Virus record (IMG/VR): IMGVR_UViG_3300017764_004042
Strand: one strand, 5' to 3'
Origin: a virus
Length of the DNA: 5,046 nucleotides
Shown here: piece after piece, positions 192-4,782 of the stretch
How the letters are laid out: every line of letters begins with the position of its first letter
Position numbering within the stretch: the stretch's first letter is position 1
The notes under the pieces: model-generated
Databases searched by the model: none
What the model was told of the DNA's origin: nothing
Seen by the model: the letters and a program-made list of their open reading frames with translations, nothing else
Made by a program: the position numbers and the translations under genes

Positions 192-596
192 TTAACCAAA
201 TATTGCATCTAATAAAGCCGCCAATCCTGCTCTAGAGACAGGGGTTGAACCCGGTAATGGTAAACCTGTTACAGAATCAATAATTACATCACTTCCAATT
301 TCTCCGTAATCAATTGTTAAACCTGCTTCTTTTGCAGCATCGTATTGATTCTTAAAATCTTGATATATTTCACCGACTTCAGTTAGTCCCGGTGCGGCTA
401 CATATTTTATTCCAAAGTAACTACCGATTAATGAAAAGATAAAAGTCATCGCTGAAACGTCGGAAACTAATGCTACTGCAGGGGTTGCGATTTTGTTTAC
501 TTGATATGCAACTAATGCACCTTCAATTAATTCTCTTTCAGATCGGCCAAAAACAATTTCATGTCTTATGACTTGATCTGGTTTTGGCTTAGGCAT
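192..596 (-). CDS. 134-aa hypothetical protein with a central hydrophobic (membrane) segment; last gene of the minus-strand operon
   Basis: ATG start at 596 is preceded by GAGTGAT (SD-like) 3 nt upstream and lies 8 nt after the stop of the upstream gene. The hydrophobic stretch ATPAVALVSDVSAMTFIFSLIGSYFGIKYVAAPG suggests 1-2 TM helices. No family recognised. Confidence 0.8.
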   Translation of the reverse strand: MPKPKPDQVIRHEIVFGRSERELIEGALVAYQVNKIATPAVALVSDVSAMTFIFSLIGSYFGIKYVAAPGLTEVGEIYQDFKNQYDAAKEAGLTIDYGEIGSDVIIDSVTGLPLPGSTPVSRAGLAALLDAIFG

Positions 597-604
597 AAAA
601 TCAC

Positions 605-1837
605 TCAGAATTTAATAGACCATGCAACTTGATTTATTTTGTTTAATTGGTTGTCTGCTTTTGTAAATGAAGCCGGTAAACTTGAGGCTGTGCTGGTGGA
701 TCTAATACAATTGTAAACTGTACCGTTGTAATGACTTAACCCTAAACAAGCAGCCATTGAAGCGCGTGGGACAGTGCTGACATTAGGTCCAGCGCTACCT
801 GTCATAACAATCGCCATCCAATAAGTTTGACCTTGAGTTATTGAAACTGAACTGGTGAAGGTTGTTTGAGTATACAAATCCGCGCCACCGTTCACATCTA
901 ATGTTACTGAACCTTGTAAAGAATCGGGATAACCCTCTGAATCAGTATCATAAACGCCCATAATTAGAGTATCTTTACTAGTATTTGTTACACCCGTTCT
1001 AATTGTAATTTCAGATAAAGTACCCGTTTTATTTGCTATAAATCTATGATAAACTACATATTCATCTTGAACCGCATTATTCAAAGTGTAGTCCATTAAA
1101 CAATTAATATCCCACGGTTGAAACCTAGAATATGTCCCGTCTAATTGAGCGGTTATGGGTTGGAATGCTAATGTTGTTGATCCCCCACCACTCGCCGCCG
1201 TTGATTGAGTTGTTCCGTCGGGAAATGTCAGGCCACCAGAAGCACTTGATACATCCAAGACAAATGAAGCAGATCCGCCTTTAACTTTCAATTTCTGATT
1301 TTCATCACAAATCAAACTAACTGCCTTTGTTGCTGAAGAAATATTGATTTCTGCATCACCAGAAGAAGCAACTAAAGTAAACGTGTTTGTTTTGTTTGTG
1401 GCTAGTAAACCTGTAGCAGATAAAACACCGGCTACGTTGTATTGGATCTGGCCGTCTGCGCCGCCGGGTGTTGCAGATATTGTCATATCATCGTTAGCGC
1501 CCGCACCATGAGCCATTGAAATGTTATTACCGACTACTAATTTACGTGCTGCTGTTAATGCTGTTGGGACTGTTCCTTGATCGTATGCCAATAAATAATC
1601 CGCATCAGTAGGCGCACCACCCGATCCACCGCTTAGAAACCCATCCCAATCACCACGAACCGCCATCCTAGCAAGTTGAACAAGCACTAATCTTCTCAAT
1701 TCATCTTCATTCTCTGGTTCAATGAATAGTTTTTCTGCTACACCTTGAAACTGAGCATACGATAAATTCTCTAGATCGGTCTCTTTTAGTAATTCATATA
1801 TCCTACTGGACCAATTATTTGTATCTGGTAACGGCAT
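605..1837 (-). CDS. 410-aa putative spike / fibre (receptor-binding) protein: N-terminal anchoring module, Gly linker, beta-rich repeat region, C-terminal beta-sandwich-like domain
   Basis: The ORF track gives 605..1870 with a TTG start. I prefer ATG at 1837 (MPLPDTNNWSSRIY...) for two reasons: it parallels the MPLPNAERKSSRIY start of the 72-aa paralogue, and it has GAGTTGAT 4 nt upstream. A linker SGGSGGAP follows the module. The Ser/Thr/Gly/Ala-rich beta region contains LTFPDGTTQSTA, a motif of the kind seen in tail-fibre and glycoprotein repeats. The C-terminal ~180 aa (YHRFIANKTGTLSEITIRTG...GQTYWMAIVM) has a jelly-roll or lectin-like alternating pattern. Confidence 0.85.
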   Translation of the reverse strand: MPLPDTNNWSSRIYELLKETDLENLSYAQFQGVAEKLFIEPENEDELRRLVLVQLARMAVRGDWDGFLSGGSGGAPTDADYLLAYDQGTVPTALTAARKLVVGNNISMAHGAGANDDMTISATPGGADGQIQYNVAGVLSATGLLATNKTNTFTLVASSGDAEINISSATKAVSLICDENQKLKVKGGSASFVLDVSSASGGLTFPDGTTQSTAASGGGSTTLAFQPITAQLDGTYSRFQPWDINCLMDYTLNNAVQDEYVVYHRFIANKTGTLSEITIRTGVTNTSKDTLIMGVYDTDSEGYPDSLQGSVTLDVNGGADLYTQTTFTSSVSITQGQTYWMAIVMTGSAGPNVSTVPRASMAACLGLSHYNGTVYNCIRSTSTASSLPASFTKADNQLNKINQVAWSIKF

Positions 1838-1848
1838 TTTAATCAACT

Positions 1849-2067
1849 CTATGTCAGGAATCCATCCCAATCACCTTTACAGGCTGTGATTGCGAACTTA
1901 ATTAGTACTAATCTTCGTAACTCATCCTCATTCAACTGCATAACGTCTAACGGTTTGCCGACGTTATCAATCGTGGGATTTTCACCGCTTGCGATCTCTT
2001 CAAGCGTTTTACCTTGCATGATAGGATAAATCCTTGAGGACTTCCTTTCAGCATTAGGTAACGGCAT
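1849..2067 (-). CDS. 72-aa protein, free-standing paralogue of the N-terminal module of the 410-aa spike protein
   Basis: ATG at 2067 with AGTGAT SD-like motif upstream. Residues shared with the spike N-terminus: MPLP, SSRIY, NEDELRRLVL, GDWDGFL. The ORF stops exactly where the spike protein continues into its Gly linker. Confidence 0.8.
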   Translation of the reverse strand: MPLPNAERKSSRIYPIMQGKTLEEIASGENPTIDNVGKPLDVMQLNEDELRRLVLIKFAITACKGDWDGFLT

Positions 2068-2077
2068 TCATATCACT

Positions 2078-2248
2078 TTATAATTTTTTAAGATATTTAC
2101 TAACCATGGCTTCAATAGCAATATAATCTTTGGTACTCATAGCCCCAAACTGTTGTTCGCTAGAACCTAACATCCAAAGTTTCTTCGCTTTAGATAATAT
2201 TCCTTTGTAAGCGTTTTTTCTTTGAGTCTTAGTCATCTTCTTAGCCAT
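2078..2248 (-). CDS. 56-aa highly basic small protein (not in supplied ORF track); possible nucleic-acid-binding or internal virion protein
   Basis: Hand translation: MAKKMTKTQRKNAYKGILSKAKKLWMLGSSEQQFGAMSTKDYIAIEAMVSKYLKKL, with TAA at 2078-2080. ATG at 2248 is preceded by GGTGAT, which directly follows the TAA stop of the 228-aa gene (TAAGGTGATTAAATG). It fills an otherwise unexplained 190-nt gap in a tightly packed operon. Confidence 0.65.
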   Translation of the reverse strand: MAKKMTKTQRKNAYKGILSKAKKLWMLGSSEQQFGAMSTKDYIAIEAMVSKYLKKL

Positions 2249-2257
2249 TTAATCACC

Positions 2258-2944
2258 TTAAGCAGAAGTTATGTATTGTGCTGTGTAGTTTAGATCAACA
2301 CGCATTGAACATGGTTTCATGTAAGGTTGAACGACAATAGGATTTGATGCGGCAATAGCGCCACTCAGATTTCCGTTGCTCATTGTTACTTGACATCCCC
2401 CTGCAACGGATGTAATCAATGCTTGATCGATTGAAGTAAATTGGGCTTGGGTTACAACTTGACCTTGAAGAGTTTCTCCAATTGTGTTAGAAGTCTGCAA
2501 ATCAACAAGTTGGAATGTTCCCGCACCTGCTGCTACACTAGCACCAATAAAGATACGTGGAACGCCTTGATTAGTATAAACTGCTAATGAAGCATTCCTG
2601 CCGCCAGCAACCATAGTGAAAACTCTTAACTGATCTCCAGCCATTAGAGTTACAGGGCGAGCGAGACCGGGAGTTCCACACGCAACACCTTTCACGGCAA
2701 AGGGGACCAGAGATAGAATCAATCCTTTCCTTAAGATGTATGCGTATGAAATGTTAGCGCCTGCTGTAACTAATCCAGAAGTTACAGTTTGGCCTGTTGC
2801 GAAGTCCCCGATATTCTGGGCTGTTACGGTATAAGCGGTATCTGTGGTTAGACTTGCTTCGGTTCCGTCAGTAATTGTTGCATTTAGAGGAATCTTGAAA
2901 CCGCTTGAGCAGTTTAGAACACCTGTTACGTTTTGTGTTGTCAT
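2258..2944 (-). CDS. 228-aa beta-rich protein, candidate major capsid/structural protein
   Basis: ATG at 2944 is preceded by the strongest SD in the genome, GAGGTGATC (plus-strand 2949-2957), which overlaps the upstream stop codon. The sequence is rich in Thr/Ala/Gly/Val/Ser with no long hydrophobic segment and an alternating beta-like pattern. The capsid role is inferred from position, size and expression signal only. Confidence 0.85.
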   Translation of the reverse strand: MTTQNVTGVLNCSSGFKIPLNATITDGTEASLTTDTAYTVTAQNIGDFATGQTVTSGLVTAGANISYAYILRKGLILSLVPFAVKGVACGTPGLARPVTLMAGDQLRVFTMVAGGRNASLAVYTNQGVPRIFIGASVAAGAGTFQLVDLQTSNTIGETLQGQVVTQAQFTSIDQALITSVAGGCQVTMSNGNLSGAIAASNPIVVQPYMKPCSMRVDLNYTAQYITSA

Positions 2945-2955
2945 CTTAGATCACC

Positions 2956-3390
2956 TCAAAGTTTGAAACCTGCCCCTAATGGTTTGAATATGTTGCGATT
3001 TACATTTGCTATAGGTCTGCGAAGTAATTTTCTGCCTAGACGAAAACCGATTCCTATTCCTAAAGACTGCACTGCCATTGCTTGATAGTTGTTCATGAAG
3101 TTGTTTTGAACAATTCCAAATGCTTGATCTGGCGCTGAGACTATATCAGCCAAAGAGATCTGGCCGGCACCTACTTCCATAGTTACCATACCAACACCTG
3201 CGCCACCGAATCCGGTCTTGTAACCTAGATCGGCACCACCTGTTACGAATCCAACGGGAGATGTCCCCATTAATCCTTGGGATAATACATTAGCATAAGC
3301 ATAACTTTCTGCTACATTCAATAGTGAAGTCGCTCGACTTCTGCGTGGGCTTCTTGACTTTTTTCTGCGGGCCATGCTGAGATCGGCCAT
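2956..3390 (-). CDS. 144-aa protein with Arg/Lys-rich N-terminus and Gly-rich hydrophobic segments; candidate genome-binding or membrane-associated structural protein
   Basis: First gene after the 3391-3480 spacer, with no SD. N-terminus MADLSMARRKKSRSPRRSRATS, followed by GFVTGGADLGYKTGFGGAGVGMVTMEVGAG and LGIGIGFRLG. An alternative start at Met6 (ATG at 3375) would be leaderless relative to a TATAAA element at 3399-3404. Confidence 0.8.
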   Translation of the reverse strand: MADLSMARRKKSRSPRRSRATSLLNVAESYAYANVLSQGLMGTSPVGFVTGGADLGYKTGFGGAGVGMVTMEVGAGQISLADIVSAPDQAFGIVQNNFMNNYQAMAVQSLGIGIGFRLGRKLLRRPIANVNRNIFKPLGAGFKL

Positions 3391-3480
3391 ATTTCCGGTT
3401 TATAGTAGTTGACTGTCATTTTCCGGAATTCGGAGCAAATTTAGCTAATTTTTTTCCGGAAAACGGAAACCTGGTTTCCG
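3391..3480 (-). promoter_or_regulatory. Intergenic spacer with clustered TTTCCG / CGGAAA half-sites and two perfect palindromes; candidate operator, promoter of the structural operon, or origin
   Basis: TTTCCG occurs at 3392, 3420, 3453 and 3475. CGGAAA or CGGAAT occurs at 3424, 3457 and 3464. There is a 12-bp palindrome TTTTCCGGAAAA at 3452-3463 and a 17-bp palindrome CGGAAACCTGGTTTCCG at 3464-3480. A TATAAA element (minus strand) lies at 3399-3404. Confidence 0.5.
3460..3480 (-). terminator. Possible terminator of the 100-aa gene: hairpin followed by a T-run on the minus strand
   Basis: Immediately after the TAG stop (3481-3483), the minus strand reads CGGAAACCAGGTTTCCG (8-bp arms) and then TTTT. 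The 1-nt centre means the real stem would be about 6-7 bp. The same sequence could instead be a protein-binding palindrome. Confidence 0.3.
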
Positions 3481-3783: not shown

Positions 3784-3785
3784 GA

Positions 3786-3834
3786 CCCCAACCAACCCCT
3801 TTCGGTTCTTAAACACCCCCCAAACCCCAATCCC
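3786..3834 (-). other. G-tract cluster on the minus strand (C-tracts on plus); potential G-quadruplex / i-motif element
   Basis: Plus-strand C-runs lie at 3786-3789, 3796-3799, 3816-3821 (six C), 3825-3828 and 3832-3834. The minus strand reads GGGATTGGGGTTTGGGGGGTG...GGGGTTGGTTGGGG. This stands out in an AT-rich genome. Confidence 0.4.
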
Positions 3835-3955
3835 AATCCTTTTAATTGGCTTCGTGTGCGAATATACATATTCACAGCCGGTAGGCTGCCGCTTGAAAGG
3901 AATTGAGAGCGTCAAAAAACTGCGTTTTTTTCCTGCCGGCTGAACGCCGGATGTA

Positions 3956-3962
3956 TTATATA
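3956..3962 (+). promoter_or_regulatory. TATA-box-like / -10-like element for the plus-strand operon
   Basis: TTATATA is centred about 26-29 nt upstream of the ATG at 3988, and that ATG has no SD. This geometry fits an archaeal TATA box driving a leaderless or near-leaderless mRNA. It could also be read as a bacterial -10 (TATTAT/TATATA), but I found no convincing -35. Confidence 0.4.
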
Positions 3963-3987
3963 GCCCCTACGGGCCAAAATCGATATT

Positions 3988-4116
3988 ATGGAGACACGCG
4001 ACATTAACGCAGACGCAGAAACAGTTGAAATAAAACGCCATTTGAAAGCATTAGGGGTAAAAGTATCCGGATCAAGAAAAGAATGTTTAGAAAGATTGCA
4101 GGAATCGATATTATGA
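3988..4116 (+). CDS. 42-aa stand-alone SAP / HeH-motif DNA-binding protein
   Basis: Hand translation: METRDINADAETVEIKRHLKALGVKVSGSRKECLERLQESIL. The segment EIKRHLKALGVKVSGSRKECLERL matches the helix-extended loop-helix SAP pattern (ELRxxLxxRGLxxxGxKxxLixRL) nearly position for position. The stop TGA at 4114-4116 overlaps the next ATG (ATGA). Confidence 0.7.
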   Translation: METRDINADAETVEIKRHLKALGVKVSGSRKECLERLQESIL

Positions 4117-4247
4117 AGAGGGACTATCGGTTTGACGACAAGTGTTGTATTTGCAGAATACATCAAAGATACAAAGATGAAAAAATGAGATTATGGGGCA
4201 TTTGTGAAAAATGTAAAGACATGATTAACGGAGATTGGATATTATGA
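4113..4247 (+). CDS. 44-aa zinc-ribbon micro-protein (CxxC-x16-CxxC)
   Basis: Hand translation: MKRDYRFDDKCCICRIHQRYKDEKMRLWGICEKCKDMINGDWIL. Both the start and the stop overlap neighbouring genes in ATGA fashion. Two CxxC pairs are spaced as in a zinc ribbon. Confidence 0.65.
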   Translation: MKRDYRFDDKCCICRIHQRYKDEKMRLWGICEKCKDMINGDWIL

Positions 4248-4366
4248 ATCTAAGATGTTCTAAGTGTCAGTTAGTGTTTCTAGTCAACACCTTTGAAGAT
4301 GTAAGGATCATACAGGCTATGTCTTGTCCAGAAGGAGCAGGTCATAAATTAAGTGAGGTGGCATAA
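4244..4366 (+). CDS. 40-aa putative zinc-binding micro-protein (CxxC ... C-x5-H)
   Basis: Hand translation: MNLRCSKCQLVFLVNTFEDVRIIQAMSCPEGAGHKLSEVA. The stop TAA overlaps the methyltransferase ATG (TAATG). The 3' end of the gene carries the GAGGTG SD for the methyltransferase. Confidence 0.6.
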   Translation: MNLRCSKCQLVFLVNTFEDVRIIQAMSCPEGAGHKLSEVA

Positions 4367-4782
4367 TGTCAAGTGATGATTACAGGACAGACCAATGGAT
4401 TCTTGATCTCTTTCCTAATTTCTTTGACCCTTGCCCATTCAAAGGCATTCACTTGAAACATAACGGACTGCATATGTCATGGAATTATGCAGATTATGAC
4501 GGCGTGTTTGTTAATCCACCTTATTCAGACCCGAACCCTTGGGTTAAGAAAGCAATACAAGAACAGAAAGATGCAAGAAGAAGAGCATATGACCCCGAAG
4601 ATGAGCAAGAGATTTGGTCGGCTGGTACTATTGTTATGCTTCTAAAGCACGACACATCAACAGAATGGTATAGATTGTTACATGAAGCAGACGCTAAGTT
4701 TTTGCTTGTTAATGGTCGTCTAAAACATCAAACAGGTAAGTCTTGCGCTTTTCCTTCAGTTTTGGCGGTGATGTGCTTATGA
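4366..4782 (+). CDS. Phage-type DNA N6-adenine methyltransferase (Dam-like, PF05869 / TIGR01712-type architecture)
   Basis: Contains the catalytic NPPY motif (DGVFVNPPYSD) followed by PWVKKAIQE. Other family-typical blocks are DQWILDLFPNFFDPCP, TIVMLLKHDTSTEWY, LVNGRLKH and AFPSVLAVM. SD GAGGTG lies 6 nt upstream of the ATG. Confidence 0.92.
   Translation: MSSDDYRTDQWILDLFPNFFDPCPFKGIHLKHNGLHMSWNYADYDGVFVNPPYSDPNPWVKKAIQEQKDARRRAYDPEDEQEIWSAGTIVMLLKHDTSTEWYRLLHEADAKFLLVNGRLKHQTGKSCAFPSVLAVMCL

What the first reader, a model, noticed from the sequence alone, without database searches (positions are those of the whole stretch)
1627..2067. Tandem duplication of a ~70-aa module: a free-standing copy next to the copy fused to the spike protein
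The 72-aa ORF and the N-terminus of the 410-aa protein align along their full length, sharing MPLP, SSRIY, NEDELRRLVL and GDWDGFL. The similarity is also visible in the DNA: CCATCCCAATCACC occurs at 1641-1654 and 1862-1875, and ACTAATCTTC at 1686-1695 and 1907-1916, both pairs offset by 221 nt. The short copy stops exactly where the long copy enters its SGGSGG linker. This suggests a capsid- or vertex-docking module present in two forms. The short form could be an adaptor, plug or assembly competitor, with the long form carrying the receptor-binding domains. Alternatively the short form is the remnant of a second, swapped-out spike gene. Spending about 4.5% of a 4.9-kb genome on a duplicate argues that it is functional.
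Basis: seen in the sequence. Interest (0 to 1): 0.7.

Follow-up and report, generated by a model that had tools for sequence, protein, structure and literature searches.

The report
Spare anchor module beside spike gene
A tiny marine archaeal virus-like element encodes a conserved stand-alone copy of its spike's anchoring domain, probably to fill the two empty places when a three-chain spike sits on a five-fold site, as in phage PRD1/PR772.

Summary
ORF72 (1849-2067, minus strand) and residues 1-69 of the 410-aa protein (605-1837) are paralogs: 44% identity, E 8e-19. ORF72 stops where the long protein enters its Gly-rich linker.

The window is a complete 4,923-bp circular "Charybdis element" (bioRxiv 10.1101/2025.08.03.668216), a marine element linked to Poseidoniales archaea. 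The long protein is its Type II protrusion. The shared module is the preprint's N-terminal triple-helix "knob". The text and stored supplements of the preprint do not mention a free-standing copy.

- All 135 assessable relatives with a long knob-bearing protrusion have an intact free knob just upstream; in 116 it overlaps the spike start or lies within 13 nt.
- It is under strong purifying selection (dN/dS 0.09), so it is not a remnant.
- None of 74 relatives with the short Type I protrusion (predicted pentameric) has a second knob.

Best explanation (inferred, confidence about 0.45): two free knobs plus three spike knobs complete a five-membered ring. This resolves the 3-fold/5-fold mismatch as P31 and P5 do in PRD1/PR772, but with an unrelated helical fold.

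The Type I/II association is one event on my tree, and no multimer model or particle structure was available. It is a new variant of a known kind.

The parts
1849..2067 (-). ORF72 ('S'): free-standing copy of the knob/anchor module, 72 aa plus stop
   Evidence: A complete homolog lies upstream of the spike gene in 135/136 loci; the exception is cut by a contig end. dN/dS 0.09. AF2 monomer model is helical (H13-17, 22-26, 31-34, 47-64) but of low confidence, pLDDT 61.
1838..1848 (-). 11-nt spacer between the ORF72 stop and the spike start (AGTTGATTAAA)
   Evidence: In relatives the spacing is -7 to +13 nt in 116/135 loci and overlapping in 58, which suggests translational coupling.
1631..1837 (-). 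Knob/anchor module fused to the spike (residues 1-69 of the 410-aa protein)
   Evidence: 44% identical to ORF72. dN/dS 0.05. In the profile search of 1.84 billion representative proteins, the module lies within the first ~20 residues of 148 of the 150 listed hits. [quoted passage not shown]
1616..1630 (-). Gly/Ser linker (GGSGG, residues 70-74) directly after the fused knob
   Evidence: Across 170 distinct long proteins the 12 residues after the knob are 35% Gly and 70% G/A/S/T.
1163..1615 (-). Stalk region of the spike (about residues 75-225)
   Evidence: Shared at E 1e-55 to 1e-82 only with the closest relatives (L045, L025, L008, L004 and others); weaker, partial matches (E 1e-15 to 1e-23) to other clade-0 spikes.
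605..1162 (-). Head domain of the spike (residues 226-410, plus stop)
   Evidence: Homologous to the C-terminal domains of 91 other long proteins. The best matches are in other gp3 clades (L074, L140, L078, E 1e-32 to 1e-36), which indicates domain exchange.
2078..2248 (-). 56-aa basic ORF between gp3 and ORF72; equals the preprint's gp4 / 'djr_sjr_connect'
   Evidence: Same position, size and 'MTKTQ.KNA' start as gp4 in the preprint's Table S1. Present in both Type I and Type II genomes.
2258..2944 (-). gp3, the 228-aa hallmark protein (putative capsid protein, double Greek-key beta-sandwich)
   Evidence: 91% identical to gp3 of L012, which is the preprint's Type II example genome. AF2 model is all-beta, pLDDT 90, with no PDB match at E<=0.001.
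2956..3375 (-). gp2-like protein with a basic N-terminus, Gly-rich and hydrophobic (139 aa from the ATG at 3375; 144 aa from 3390)
   Evidence: Resembles gp2 of the preprint's clade A genome by eye (MARRR... start, same position); not aligned.
192..596 (-). 134-aa ORF downstream of the spike (position of the preprint's gp6 / 'alpha')

Best explanation
ORF72 is a functional, free-standing copy of the anchoring 'knob' at the N-terminus of the element's spike (the Type II protrusion). I propose that the two proteins co-assemble. The spike is predicted to be a trimer and so supplies three knobs through its flexible Gly-rich linkers. Two ORF72 chains supply the missing two, completing the five-membered knob ring that the pentameric Type I protrusions of sister lineages are predicted to build on their own. 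This would let a 3-fold fibre sit on a 5-fold site without leaving gaps. ORF72 stops exactly at the domain boundary because any extension would clash with the three linkers converging into the stalk.

Shown here: paralogy, universal conservation with Type II spikes, absence with Type I, purifying selection, tight gene coupling, and the conserved stop position. Inferred: physical co-assembly, the 3:2 ratio, and location at a 5-fold vertex. The weaker claim, that ORF72 is a structural partner of the spike's anchor, I hold at about 0.75. The specific 3+2 ring I hold at about 0.45.
For: 1. Paralogy is solid: E 8e-19 for the pair and hhalign 99.9% for the two families.
2. 135 of 136 loci with a full long protein carry a complete short copy 150-700 nt upstream on the same strand. 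The one exception is cut by the contig end. These loci span nine knob clades, with gp3 identity to the window down to 49%.
3. None of 74 Type I loci has a second knob ORF, even at E<=10 with a Type I knob HMM. There the gap from gp3 stop to gp5 start is only 94-204 nt, room for gp4 alone. The preprint's annotated clade A genome agrees.
4. The preprint's AF3 models give Type I as a pentamer with an N-terminal helical ring; when Type I is forced to a trimer it yields 'incomplete pentamers (missing two proteins)'. Type II and III are modelled as trimers.
5. dN/dS is 0.09 for the short copy and 0.05 for the fused knob, at dS of about 1.
6. 204 of 206 distinct short copies end 0-2 residues after the last knob motif. 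Long copies continue into a linker that is 35% Gly.
7. The short copy's stop and the spike's start overlap or lie within 13 nt in 116/135 loci.
8. Short and long copies share lineage-specific derived residues more often than expected: 33 observed against 17.7 +/- 3.2 for mismatched clade pairs. One clade lost the MPLP N-terminus and changed RRLVL in both copies. Synonymous sites between the copies are near saturation, pS 0.53-0.81, so this is not recent gene conversion.
9. There is an exact precedent of logic in PRD1/PR772. Gene XXXI (P31, 126 aa) lies immediately upstream of and overlaps gene V (spike P5). The two are 38% identical, E 1e-20. P31 ends at ...GVW, exactly where P5 enters its collagen-like Gly linker. 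Cryo-EM shows a penton of three P5 plus two P31 (PMC6750898).
10. Many short Type II genomes also carry a separate tail-fibre-assembly chaperone after the spike gene (PHROG 4912, E 4e-14). That fits a trimeric fibre and makes a chaperone role for ORF72 less necessary.
Against: - No particle, capsid or oligomer has been observed for these elements. The oligomeric states come from AF3 predictions in one preprint.
- I could not run a multimer prediction. The ORF72 monomer model is of low confidence (pLDDT 61, pTM 0.39).
- On my gp3 NJ tree, Type I and Type II are reciprocally monophyletic with one transition. The presence/absence association is therefore a single evolutionary event, not repeated independent evidence.
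- My Type I sample came from one peptide pattern in one metagenome scan and may not cover all Type I clades. I did not obtain clade P (no protrusion gene) or confirmed Type III genomes.
- About half of the concordant derived residues (16 of 33) come from one clade in which the copies are unusually similar. Ancient gene conversion cannot be excluded there.
- Homology between Type I and Type II knobs is only weakly supported by sequence (hhalign 64%, E 7e-5, 37 columns).
Confidence: 0.45

Rival explanations
1. ORF72 forms a ring or plug on its own (for example a homopentamer). This ring either caps the sites that carry no spike or serves as the base onto which the spike trimer docks.
For: The Type I knob is predicted to form a closed five-membered ring by itself. 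In PRD1, P31 alone can build pentons in the absence of P5 (cited in PMC6750898). ORF72 is conserved as an independent gene under purifying selection.
Against: If the spike docked onto an ORF72 ring, it would have no obvious reason to keep a homologous knob with the same terminal motifs and lineage-specific co-changes. The tight start/stop coupling of the two genes suggests joint assembly. The two models are not exclusive: mixed populations are possible, as in PRD1.
Confidence: 0.2
2. ORF72 is a regulator rather than a building block. It could be a competitor that occupies anchoring sites to limit the number of spikes per particle, or a chaperone that caps the spike's knob until assembly.
For: It has the same binding surfaces as the spike's anchor but carries no receptor-binding part. 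It is co-expressed with the spike. The monomer model is poorly ordered, as is common for proteins that fold onto partners.
Against: A dedicated tail-fibre-assembly chaperone already accompanies the spike in many genomes that also carry the free knob. A pure competitor would be equally useful to Type I genomes, yet none of 74 has one. The strict conservation of the C-terminal end point is better explained by steric fit in a structure.
Confidence: 0.12
3. ORF72 acts outside the particle. For example, an intracellular or secreted decoy might block anchoring or receptor sites as a form of superinfection exclusion, or the gene might have an unrelated function that merely reuses the fold.
For: No direct evidence. 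It cannot be excluded because nothing is known experimentally about these elements.
Against: The gene sits inside the structural gene block, is coupled to the spike gene, and co-varies with the spike's knob. It has no signal peptide-like or membrane segment by eye.
Confidence: 0.05
4. ORF72 is a decaying remnant of a second, swapped-out spike gene.
For: Spike distal domains are indeed exchanged between lineages.
Against: The gene is intact in 135/135 assessable genomes across nine knob clades. dN/dS is 0.09 at saturating dS. The end point is conserved in 204/206 distinct sequences. Where the ATG is lost, the start codon is kept as GTG or TTG.
Confidence: 0.01

Closest known systems
Charybdis elements (Kirchberger & Luque, bioRxiv 2025, doi 10.1101/2025.08.03.668216): gp5 Type II protrusion with an N-terminal triple-helix 'knob'
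   Same: The window is a member of this family. It is a 4.9-kb circle with the gp1-gp3 block and a gp3 that is 91% identical to that of the preprint's Type II example genome (L012). It has an accessory block with a methyltransferase. Its spike has a conserved knob, a Gly linker, a stalk and an exchangeable head.
   Different: The preprint's main text does not contain 'gp4', 'duplicat' or 'paralog' and does not mention a free-standing knob. Its gp4 is the 51-aa basic ORF, which corresponds to the window's 56-aa ORF and not to ORF72. The stored part of its annotated GenBank file holds only genomes without the MPLP module. The free copy and its restriction to Type II genomes are therefore new observations as far as I can see.
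PRD1/PR772 (Tectiviridae) vertex: penton protein P31 plus the N-terminal domain of spike P5, a 2:3 heteropentamer
   Same: A small free-standing protein is paralogous to the N-terminal domain of a trimeric spike (38% identity there, 44% here). Its gene lies immediately upstream of the spike gene with start/stop coupling. The short protein ends exactly where the spike enters a Gly-rich linker. The spike's distal part does host recognition (searches compared).
   Different: P31 and the P5 base are beta jelly rolls that form the penton of the capsid shell itself. The knob here is helical, and the knob profile finds no solved structure at E<0.8 (no tectivirus chain among the weak hits). The 3:2 ring is solved by cryo-EM in PR772 and is only inferred here. 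The host is bacterial rather than (putatively) archaeal, and the genome is 15 kb linear rather than 4.9 kb circular.
Adenovirus fibre on the penton base, and vibriophage NO16 (two trimeric GP13 spikes on a pentameric GP14 penton)
   Same: These also solve the problem of mounting trimeric fibres on a 5-fold vertex (PMC6750898 discussion; PMC13552765 abstract).
   Different: In both, a homopentameric base leaves some binding grooves empty or shared. There is no free-standing paralog of the fibre's anchor that fills the vacant positions.

Membership tests
Charybdis elements | Small circular genome of about 3.7-5.2 kb | tested here: met
   A 123-nt direct terminal repeat gives a unit of 4,923 bp. 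Most related contigs are also circular, 4.1-5.0 kb.
Charybdis elements | Encodes the hallmark gp3 (about 230 aa, two beta-sandwich domains, no known capsid fold) | tested here: met
   The 228-aa ORF is 91% identical to gp3 of IMGVR_UViG_3300017782_005554, the preprint's example. A profile built from it finds gp3 in 61 Type I loci; these were retrieved with the gp5 of the preprint's clade A genome, which L150 matches at 100%. The AF2 model is all-beta, pLDDT 90, with no PDB match at E<=0.001.
Charybdis elements | Two oppositely oriented gene blocks: a structural block (gp1-gp3, gp4, gp5, gp6) and an accessory block with methyltransferase(s); no recognisable replication protein | tested here: met
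   ORF map. The Dam-type methyltransferase domain (PF05869, E 1e-13) is the only enzyme hit, and no replication protein was found among the 10 larger ORFs scanned in Pfam or PHROGs.
Charybdis Type II protrusion (gp5) | N-terminal knob, then a stalk, then a C-terminal lectin-type jelly-roll head | tested here: inconclusive
   The knob is homologous to that of the preprint's Type II example. The head domain is homologous to the heads of 91 other long proteins, including the ~265-aa short forms. I did not model the fold of the head, and the protein has no PHROG or PDB sequence hit.
Charybdis Type II protrusion (gp5) | Assembles as a trimer | not testable with these tools
   Only monomer prediction was available. 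The trimer state rests on the preprint's AF3 scores and, indirectly, on a tail-fibre-assembly chaperone gene next to the spike in relatives.
P31/P5-type heteropentameric vertex (PRD1/PR772) | Free-standing paralog of the spike's N-terminal domain, encoded immediately upstream and ending at the domain/linker boundary | tested here: met
   for the window and its family; for PRD1.
P31/P5-type heteropentameric vertex (PRD1/PR772) | Three spike chains plus two short chains form one pentamer at the 5-fold vertex | not testable with these tools
   No multimer modelling or particle data were available. The only support is that the free copy occurs only with the predicted trimeric spikes.
P31/P5-type heteropentameric vertex (PRD1/PR772) | Homology to P31 / jelly-roll fold | tested here: not met
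   The module is predicted helical. Its profile finds no solved structure at E<0.8 and no tectivirus chain. It is therefore an analogue and not a member.

The most novel reading that the evidence does not exclude
The free knob and the spike knob form a 2:3 hetero-pentameric ring. This would be an independent, helical-fold reinvention of the PRD1/PR772 P31/P5 solution to the trimer-on-5-fold mismatch. If so, the gene pair is the first genomic sign that Charybdis elements build particles with true 5-fold vertices. That would make them autonomous icosahedral viruses of marine group II archaea with a new capsid fold, rather than plasmids in vesicles or satellites.
Probability: 0.4. Interest if true: 0.78.

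Novelty: new variant of a known kind. Interest (0 to 1): 0.62.

Why it matters
Charybdis elements are abundant worldwide in the ocean. The only paper on them leaves open whether they are viruses, satellites or vesicle-borne plasmids. A dedicated 'filler' copy of the spike anchor, kept only where the spike is predicted to be trimeric, is hard to explain unless the anchor site has a symmetry higher than three. That argues for a particle with 5-fold vertices. It also gives a concrete, cheap experiment that needs no host culture: co-express ORF72 with the spike's N-terminal part and measure the stoichiometry. More generally, it would be a second, structurally unrelated case of the heteropentamer solution known so far only from PRD1-like phages. 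That would suggest the solution is a recurrent design and not a tectivirus oddity.

Tried and rejected
- Pfam and PHROG scans of ORF72 and the spike gave nothing usable.
- PDB sequence searches with the spike and with the knob profile gave only noise.
- A tblastn of gp3 against GenBank phages found nothing.
- The AF2 monomer model of ORF72 was too uncertain (pLDDT 61) for a fold search, so I did not run one.
- The gp3 model has no meaningful PDB neighbour, in agreement with the preprint.
- Three scans of the viral contig collection for Type I genomes failed: the prototype gp5, a Type I gp5 alignment and clade A gp3. None of these three scans retrieved a Type I genome. Type I genomes had to be taken from the metagenome collection.
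- The genome collection gave only three loci, all Type II with a free knob and none integrated. I could not examine clade P, which lacks a protrusion gene.
- Two genomes (L134, L145) first appeared to lack the free knob. This was an artefact of calling ATG starts only: both have intact copies starting with GTG or TTG. L057 and L078 likewise have intact copies.
- The ~170-200-aa hits of the knob profile looked like possible Type I proteins but are frameshifted or truncated Type II sequences.
- Recent gene conversion as the cause of the similarity is rejected, because synonymous sites between the copies are near saturation.
- Long contigs that might have shown integration into a host are concatemers of the 4.5-kb unit.
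Full report
**1. The observation**

The window carries a 123-nt terminal direct repeat, so it is a complete circular genome of 4,923 bp. On the minus strand, ORF72 (2067->1849) is followed after 11 nt by a 410-aa ORF (1837->605).
- BLASTP aligns ORF72 with residues 1-69 of the long protein over its whole length: 44% identity, 63% positives, one 3-residue gap, E 8e-19.
- The DNA copies are 54% identical.
- ORF72 ends ...GDWDGFLT*, while the long protein continues ...GDWDGFLSGGSGG.

**2. What the window is**

None of the structural ORFs matches Pfam or PHROGs. The only enzyme hit is a 138-aa Dam-type methyltransferase on the other strand. GenBank phages hold no relative of the 228-aa protein.

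Scans of public contigs with that protein, with the long protein and with the module returned well over a hundred circular contigs of 4.1-5.0 kb, all with the same gene order.

A literature search identified the family as the 'Charybdis elements' of Kirchberger & Luque (bioRxiv 10.1101/2025.08.03.668216). These are circular elements of about 4.6 kb, probably dsDNA, found only in marine samples and enriched in the vesicle/small-virus density fraction. One clade integrates into Poseidoniales (marine group II archaea). Their nature (virus, satellite or plasmid) is explicitly unresolved.

The preprint's parts map onto the window as follows.
- **gp3** is the hallmark, a ~230-aa double Greek-key protein. 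The window's 228-aa ORF is 91% identical to gp3 of the preprint's Type II example genome (L012). My AF2 model is all-beta with pLDDT 90 and has no PDB neighbour.
- **gp5** is a 'protrusion' with a conserved N-terminal three-helix 'knob'. It comes in three types:
  - Type I: about 170 aa, knob plus jelly roll, predicted pentamer with a ring of knobs.
  - Type II: knob, stalk and lectin-like head, predicted trimer.
  - Type III: knob plus tailspike, predicted trimer.

The window's 410-aa protein is a long Type II form. Its stalk is shared strongly (E 1e-55 to 1e-82) only with its closest relatives. Its 185-aa head is homologous to the heads of 91 other long proteins, with the best matches in other gp3 clades. 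That shows head exchange on a constant knob.

**3. What the preprint does not say**

The main text does not contain 'gp4', 'duplicat' or 'paralog'. Its gp4 (Table S1) is a 51-aa basic protein that corresponds to the window's 56-aa ORF at 2078-2248, not to ORF72. The stored part of the annotated GenBank supplement contains only genomes without the MPLP module. As far as the text and stored supplements show, the free-standing knob has not been described.

**4. Comparative anatomy of the pair**

I translated every locus stop-to-stop, so that non-ATG starts are not missed.
- **Presence.** 135 of 136 loci with a full long protein have a complete short copy 150-700 nt upstream on the same strand. 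The single exception is cut by the contig end. Apparent absences in L134, L145, L057 and L078 were artefacts of ATG-only ORF calling; the copies are intact and start with GTG or TTG where checked.
- **Spread.** The pair occurs in nine knob clades, with gp3 identity to the window down to 49%.
- **Age of the duplication.** Between clades, short copies are about 55% identical to each other, fused knobs about 57%, and short versus fused about 46%. The duplication therefore predates the radiation of these clades.
- **Selection.** Within the window's clade, dN/dS is 0.09 for the short copy and 0.05 for the fused knob, at dS of about 1.
- **End point.** 204 of 206 distinct short copies end 0-2 residues after the last motif G[FLW][LTFI]. 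In 170 distinct long proteins, the next 12 residues are 35% Gly and 70% G/A/S/T.
- **Gene coupling.** The short copy's stop and the spike's start overlap (58 loci) or lie within 13 nt (116 of 135 in total).
- **Restriction to this family.** A profile search of 1.84 billion representative proteins found 229 hits. Of the 150 listed, 148 carry the module within their first ~20 residues, and they are mostly either 70-85 aa or 250-494 aa long, the rest being fragments. No listed hit shows another domain context.

The remnant hypothesis is refuted.

**5. The discriminating pattern**

The preprint's annotated clade A (Type I) genome runs gp2-gp3-connector-Type I gp5-alpha with no extra knob. I retrieved 80 Type I loci from metagenomes.
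- In the 74 with a Type I gp5, a Type I knob HMM finds no second knob ORF even at E<=10.
- The Type II knob HMM was tested only on the Type II loci and the three genome-collection loci, not on these Type I loci.
- The distance from gp3 stop to gp5 start is 94-204 nt, which leaves room for gp4 only.

So the free knob accompanies the long Type II protrusions (predicted trimers) and is absent with the predicted pentamers. The preprint adds a telling detail: Type I chains forced into a trimer give 'incomplete pentamers (missing two proteins)'. The knob ring therefore appears intrinsically five-membered.

Caveat: on my gp3 NJ tree the two types are reciprocally monophyletic, so this association is one evolutionary event. 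I did not sample Type III, clade P or all Type I clades.

**6. Signs that the two copies evolve together**

Consensus sequences of the nine clades show more lineage-specific derived residues shared by the short and fused copy of the same clade than by mismatched clade pairs: 33 against 17.7 +/- 3.2, with a maximum of 27 in 1,846 derangements. Examples:
- The residue after the last Gly is F/F, L/L or W/W in every clade.
- The 'VL' of RRLVL becomes 'CL' in both copies of one clade and 'II' in both copies of another.
- That second clade has also lost the otherwise near-invariant MPLP N-terminus in both copies.

Synonymous differences between the two copies within a genome are near saturation, pS 0.53-0.81. 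Recent gene conversion therefore does not explain this. Shared constraint does, for example mutual contacts or a common partner. About half of the signal (16 of 33) comes from one clade, where older conversion cannot be excluded.

**7. Mechanism proposed**

The best-supported reading is that ORF72 is a filler subunit. Three knobs come from the spike trimer through its flexible linkers, and two come from ORF72. Together they close the five-membered ring that Type I proteins are predicted to build alone. The short protein must stop at the domain boundary to leave room for the three converging linkers.

The model rests on a solved precedent with the same gene-level signature. In PRD1, gene XXXI (P31, 126 aa) lies immediately upstream of and overlaps gene V (spike P5). 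P31 is 38% identical to the P5 N-terminal domain (E 1e-20). It ends at ...GVW, exactly where P5 enters its collagen-like Gly linker. In PR772, cryo-EM shows a penton made of three P5 and two P31 (PMC6750898).

The fold differs, helical here against jelly roll there, and there is no sequence relationship. This is an analogue, not a member.

Shown: paralogy, conservation, selection, coupling, the end point and the Type II restriction. Inferred: co-assembly, the 2:3 ratio and the 5-fold location. I put about 0.75 on 'structural partner of the spike anchor' and about 0.45 on the 3+2 ring.

**8. Rivals**

- **A ring or plug of ORF72 alone**, at spike-less sites or as a base for the spike. This is compatible with the PRD1 genetics and is not exclusive of the main model (0.2).
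- **A competitor or chaperone role.** This is less likely because many Type II genomes already carry a tail-fibre-assembly chaperone after the spike gene (PHROG 4912, E 4e-14), and because Type I genomes never have a free knob (0.12).
- **A function outside the particle.** This cannot be excluded but has no support (0.05).
- **A decaying remnant.** Excluded (0.01).

**9. Limits**

No multimer prediction could be run. The ORF72 monomer model is weak (pLDDT 61, pTM 0.39), which fits an obligate oligomer but equally a shallow alignment. Oligomeric states come from one preprint's AF3 models. No particles are known.

**10. Verdict**

The finding is real, and the duplicate is functional and ancient. 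It appears to be unreported, and it points to a specific, testable assembly mechanism that bears on whether these ubiquitous marine elements are true icosahedral viruses. It is a new variant of a known kind (a P31/P5-like heteromeric anchor in an unrelated fold and element family). Interest 0.62.

Noticed in passing
window 3977-4782 (+ strand): The plus-strand genes form a chain of overlapping stops and starts: ATGA at 4112-4116, 4243-4247 and 4779-4782, and TAATG at 4364-4368. Three successive starts sit in a repeated 16-nt context, (A/G)A(A/T)T(C/G)GATATTATG(G/A)A, at 3977, 4102 and 4233 (repeat families D4/D8). The real starts of the second and third small ORFs are probably ATG 4112 and ATG 4243, not the upstream starts listed.
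   Followed up: partly
window 3392-3462: TTTCCGG occurs four times within 70 nt, spaced 28 and 33 nt, one pair forming the palindrome TTTCCGGAAA. About 0.45 matches are expected in the whole window, and 0 of 200 shuffles reach four. The cluster lies in the gap between the gp1-like and gp2-like ORFs and may be a regulator-binding or origin site. Conservation in relatives was not checked.
   Followed up: partly
window 3784-3987 and 3376-3420: The divergent intergenic region holds a C-rich tract (CCCCAACCAACCCC...CCCCCCAAACCCCAATCCCAATCC) and a TTATATA box about 25-30 nt before the ATG at 3988. A TATAAA lies about 25-30 nt before the ATG at 3375 on the minus strand. This layout resembles archaeal TATA promoters with leaderless mRNAs and would fit the proposed Poseidoniales host. 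Seen by eye only.
   Followed up: no
window 605-1162 compared with L074, L140, L078: The spike's head domain has its closest relatives (E 1e-32 to 1e-36) in genomes of other gp3 clades, whereas its stalk matches its closest relatives best. This indicates horizontal exchange of the head on a constant knob.
   Followed up: partly
L100, L102, L109, L120, L090 (knob clade 1): In this lineage both the free knob and the spike knob have lost the otherwise near-invariant MPLP N-terminus. Both also changed NEDELRRLVL to NREE(L/C)IRLII and NEQEMVDLII respectively. The MPLP arm and the RR helix may contact each other between subunits.
   Followed up: partly
L048:2262-2504 and the ~80-aa ORF after the spike gene in many short Type II loci: This ORF is a tail-fibre-assembly chaperone homolog (PF16778; PHROG 4912, E 4e-14). 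The window and its clade have no such ORF; there the spike is followed directly by the 134-aa gp6-like ORF.
   Followed up: partly
L134:1621-1914, L145 unit 4937-5173, and the 60-97-aa ORFs between gp4 and the free knob in many loci: Many Type II genomes have an extra small ORF between gp4 and the free knob. In L134 and L145 it is Pro-rich with an IPDNF[YF]GFL..GG tail. The window lacks it. Function unknown.
   Followed up: no
L047, L048, L049, L070, L077: The contigs longer than 6 kb that I examined are head-to-tail concatemers of the ~4.5-kb unit, and L048 holds about three units. L070 and L077 join non-identical units, with spikes of 279 and 267 aa in L070. This could reflect rolling-circle intermediates, recombinants or assembly chimeras.
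   Followed up: no
viral contig collection compared with the metagenome collection: The prototype Type I gp5, a Type I gp5 alignment and clade A gp3 all found nothing in the viral contig collection. The clade A genome (L150) and 79 other Type I loci were found in the metagenome collection. All Charybdis genomes I retrieved from the viral collection carry the Type II knob, a sampling bias to keep in mind.
   Followed up: yes
window 4366-4782 (+): A very short (138-aa) Dam-family N6-adenine methyltransferase homolog carries the NPPY catalytic motif (VFVNPPYSD). No replication protein is recognisable among the ORFs scanned.
   Followed up: no
P0036/P0185 and P0116: Close relatives are deposited in GenBank as ~5-kb contigs binned into a 'Candidatus Poseidoniales archaeon' MAG and a 'Myxococcales bacterium' MAG, and L147-L149 sit in three unrelated MAGs. 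The contigs are whole elements or slightly longer linear contigs (5.2-7.1 kb); integration was not examined, so these bins say little about the host.
   Followed up: partly
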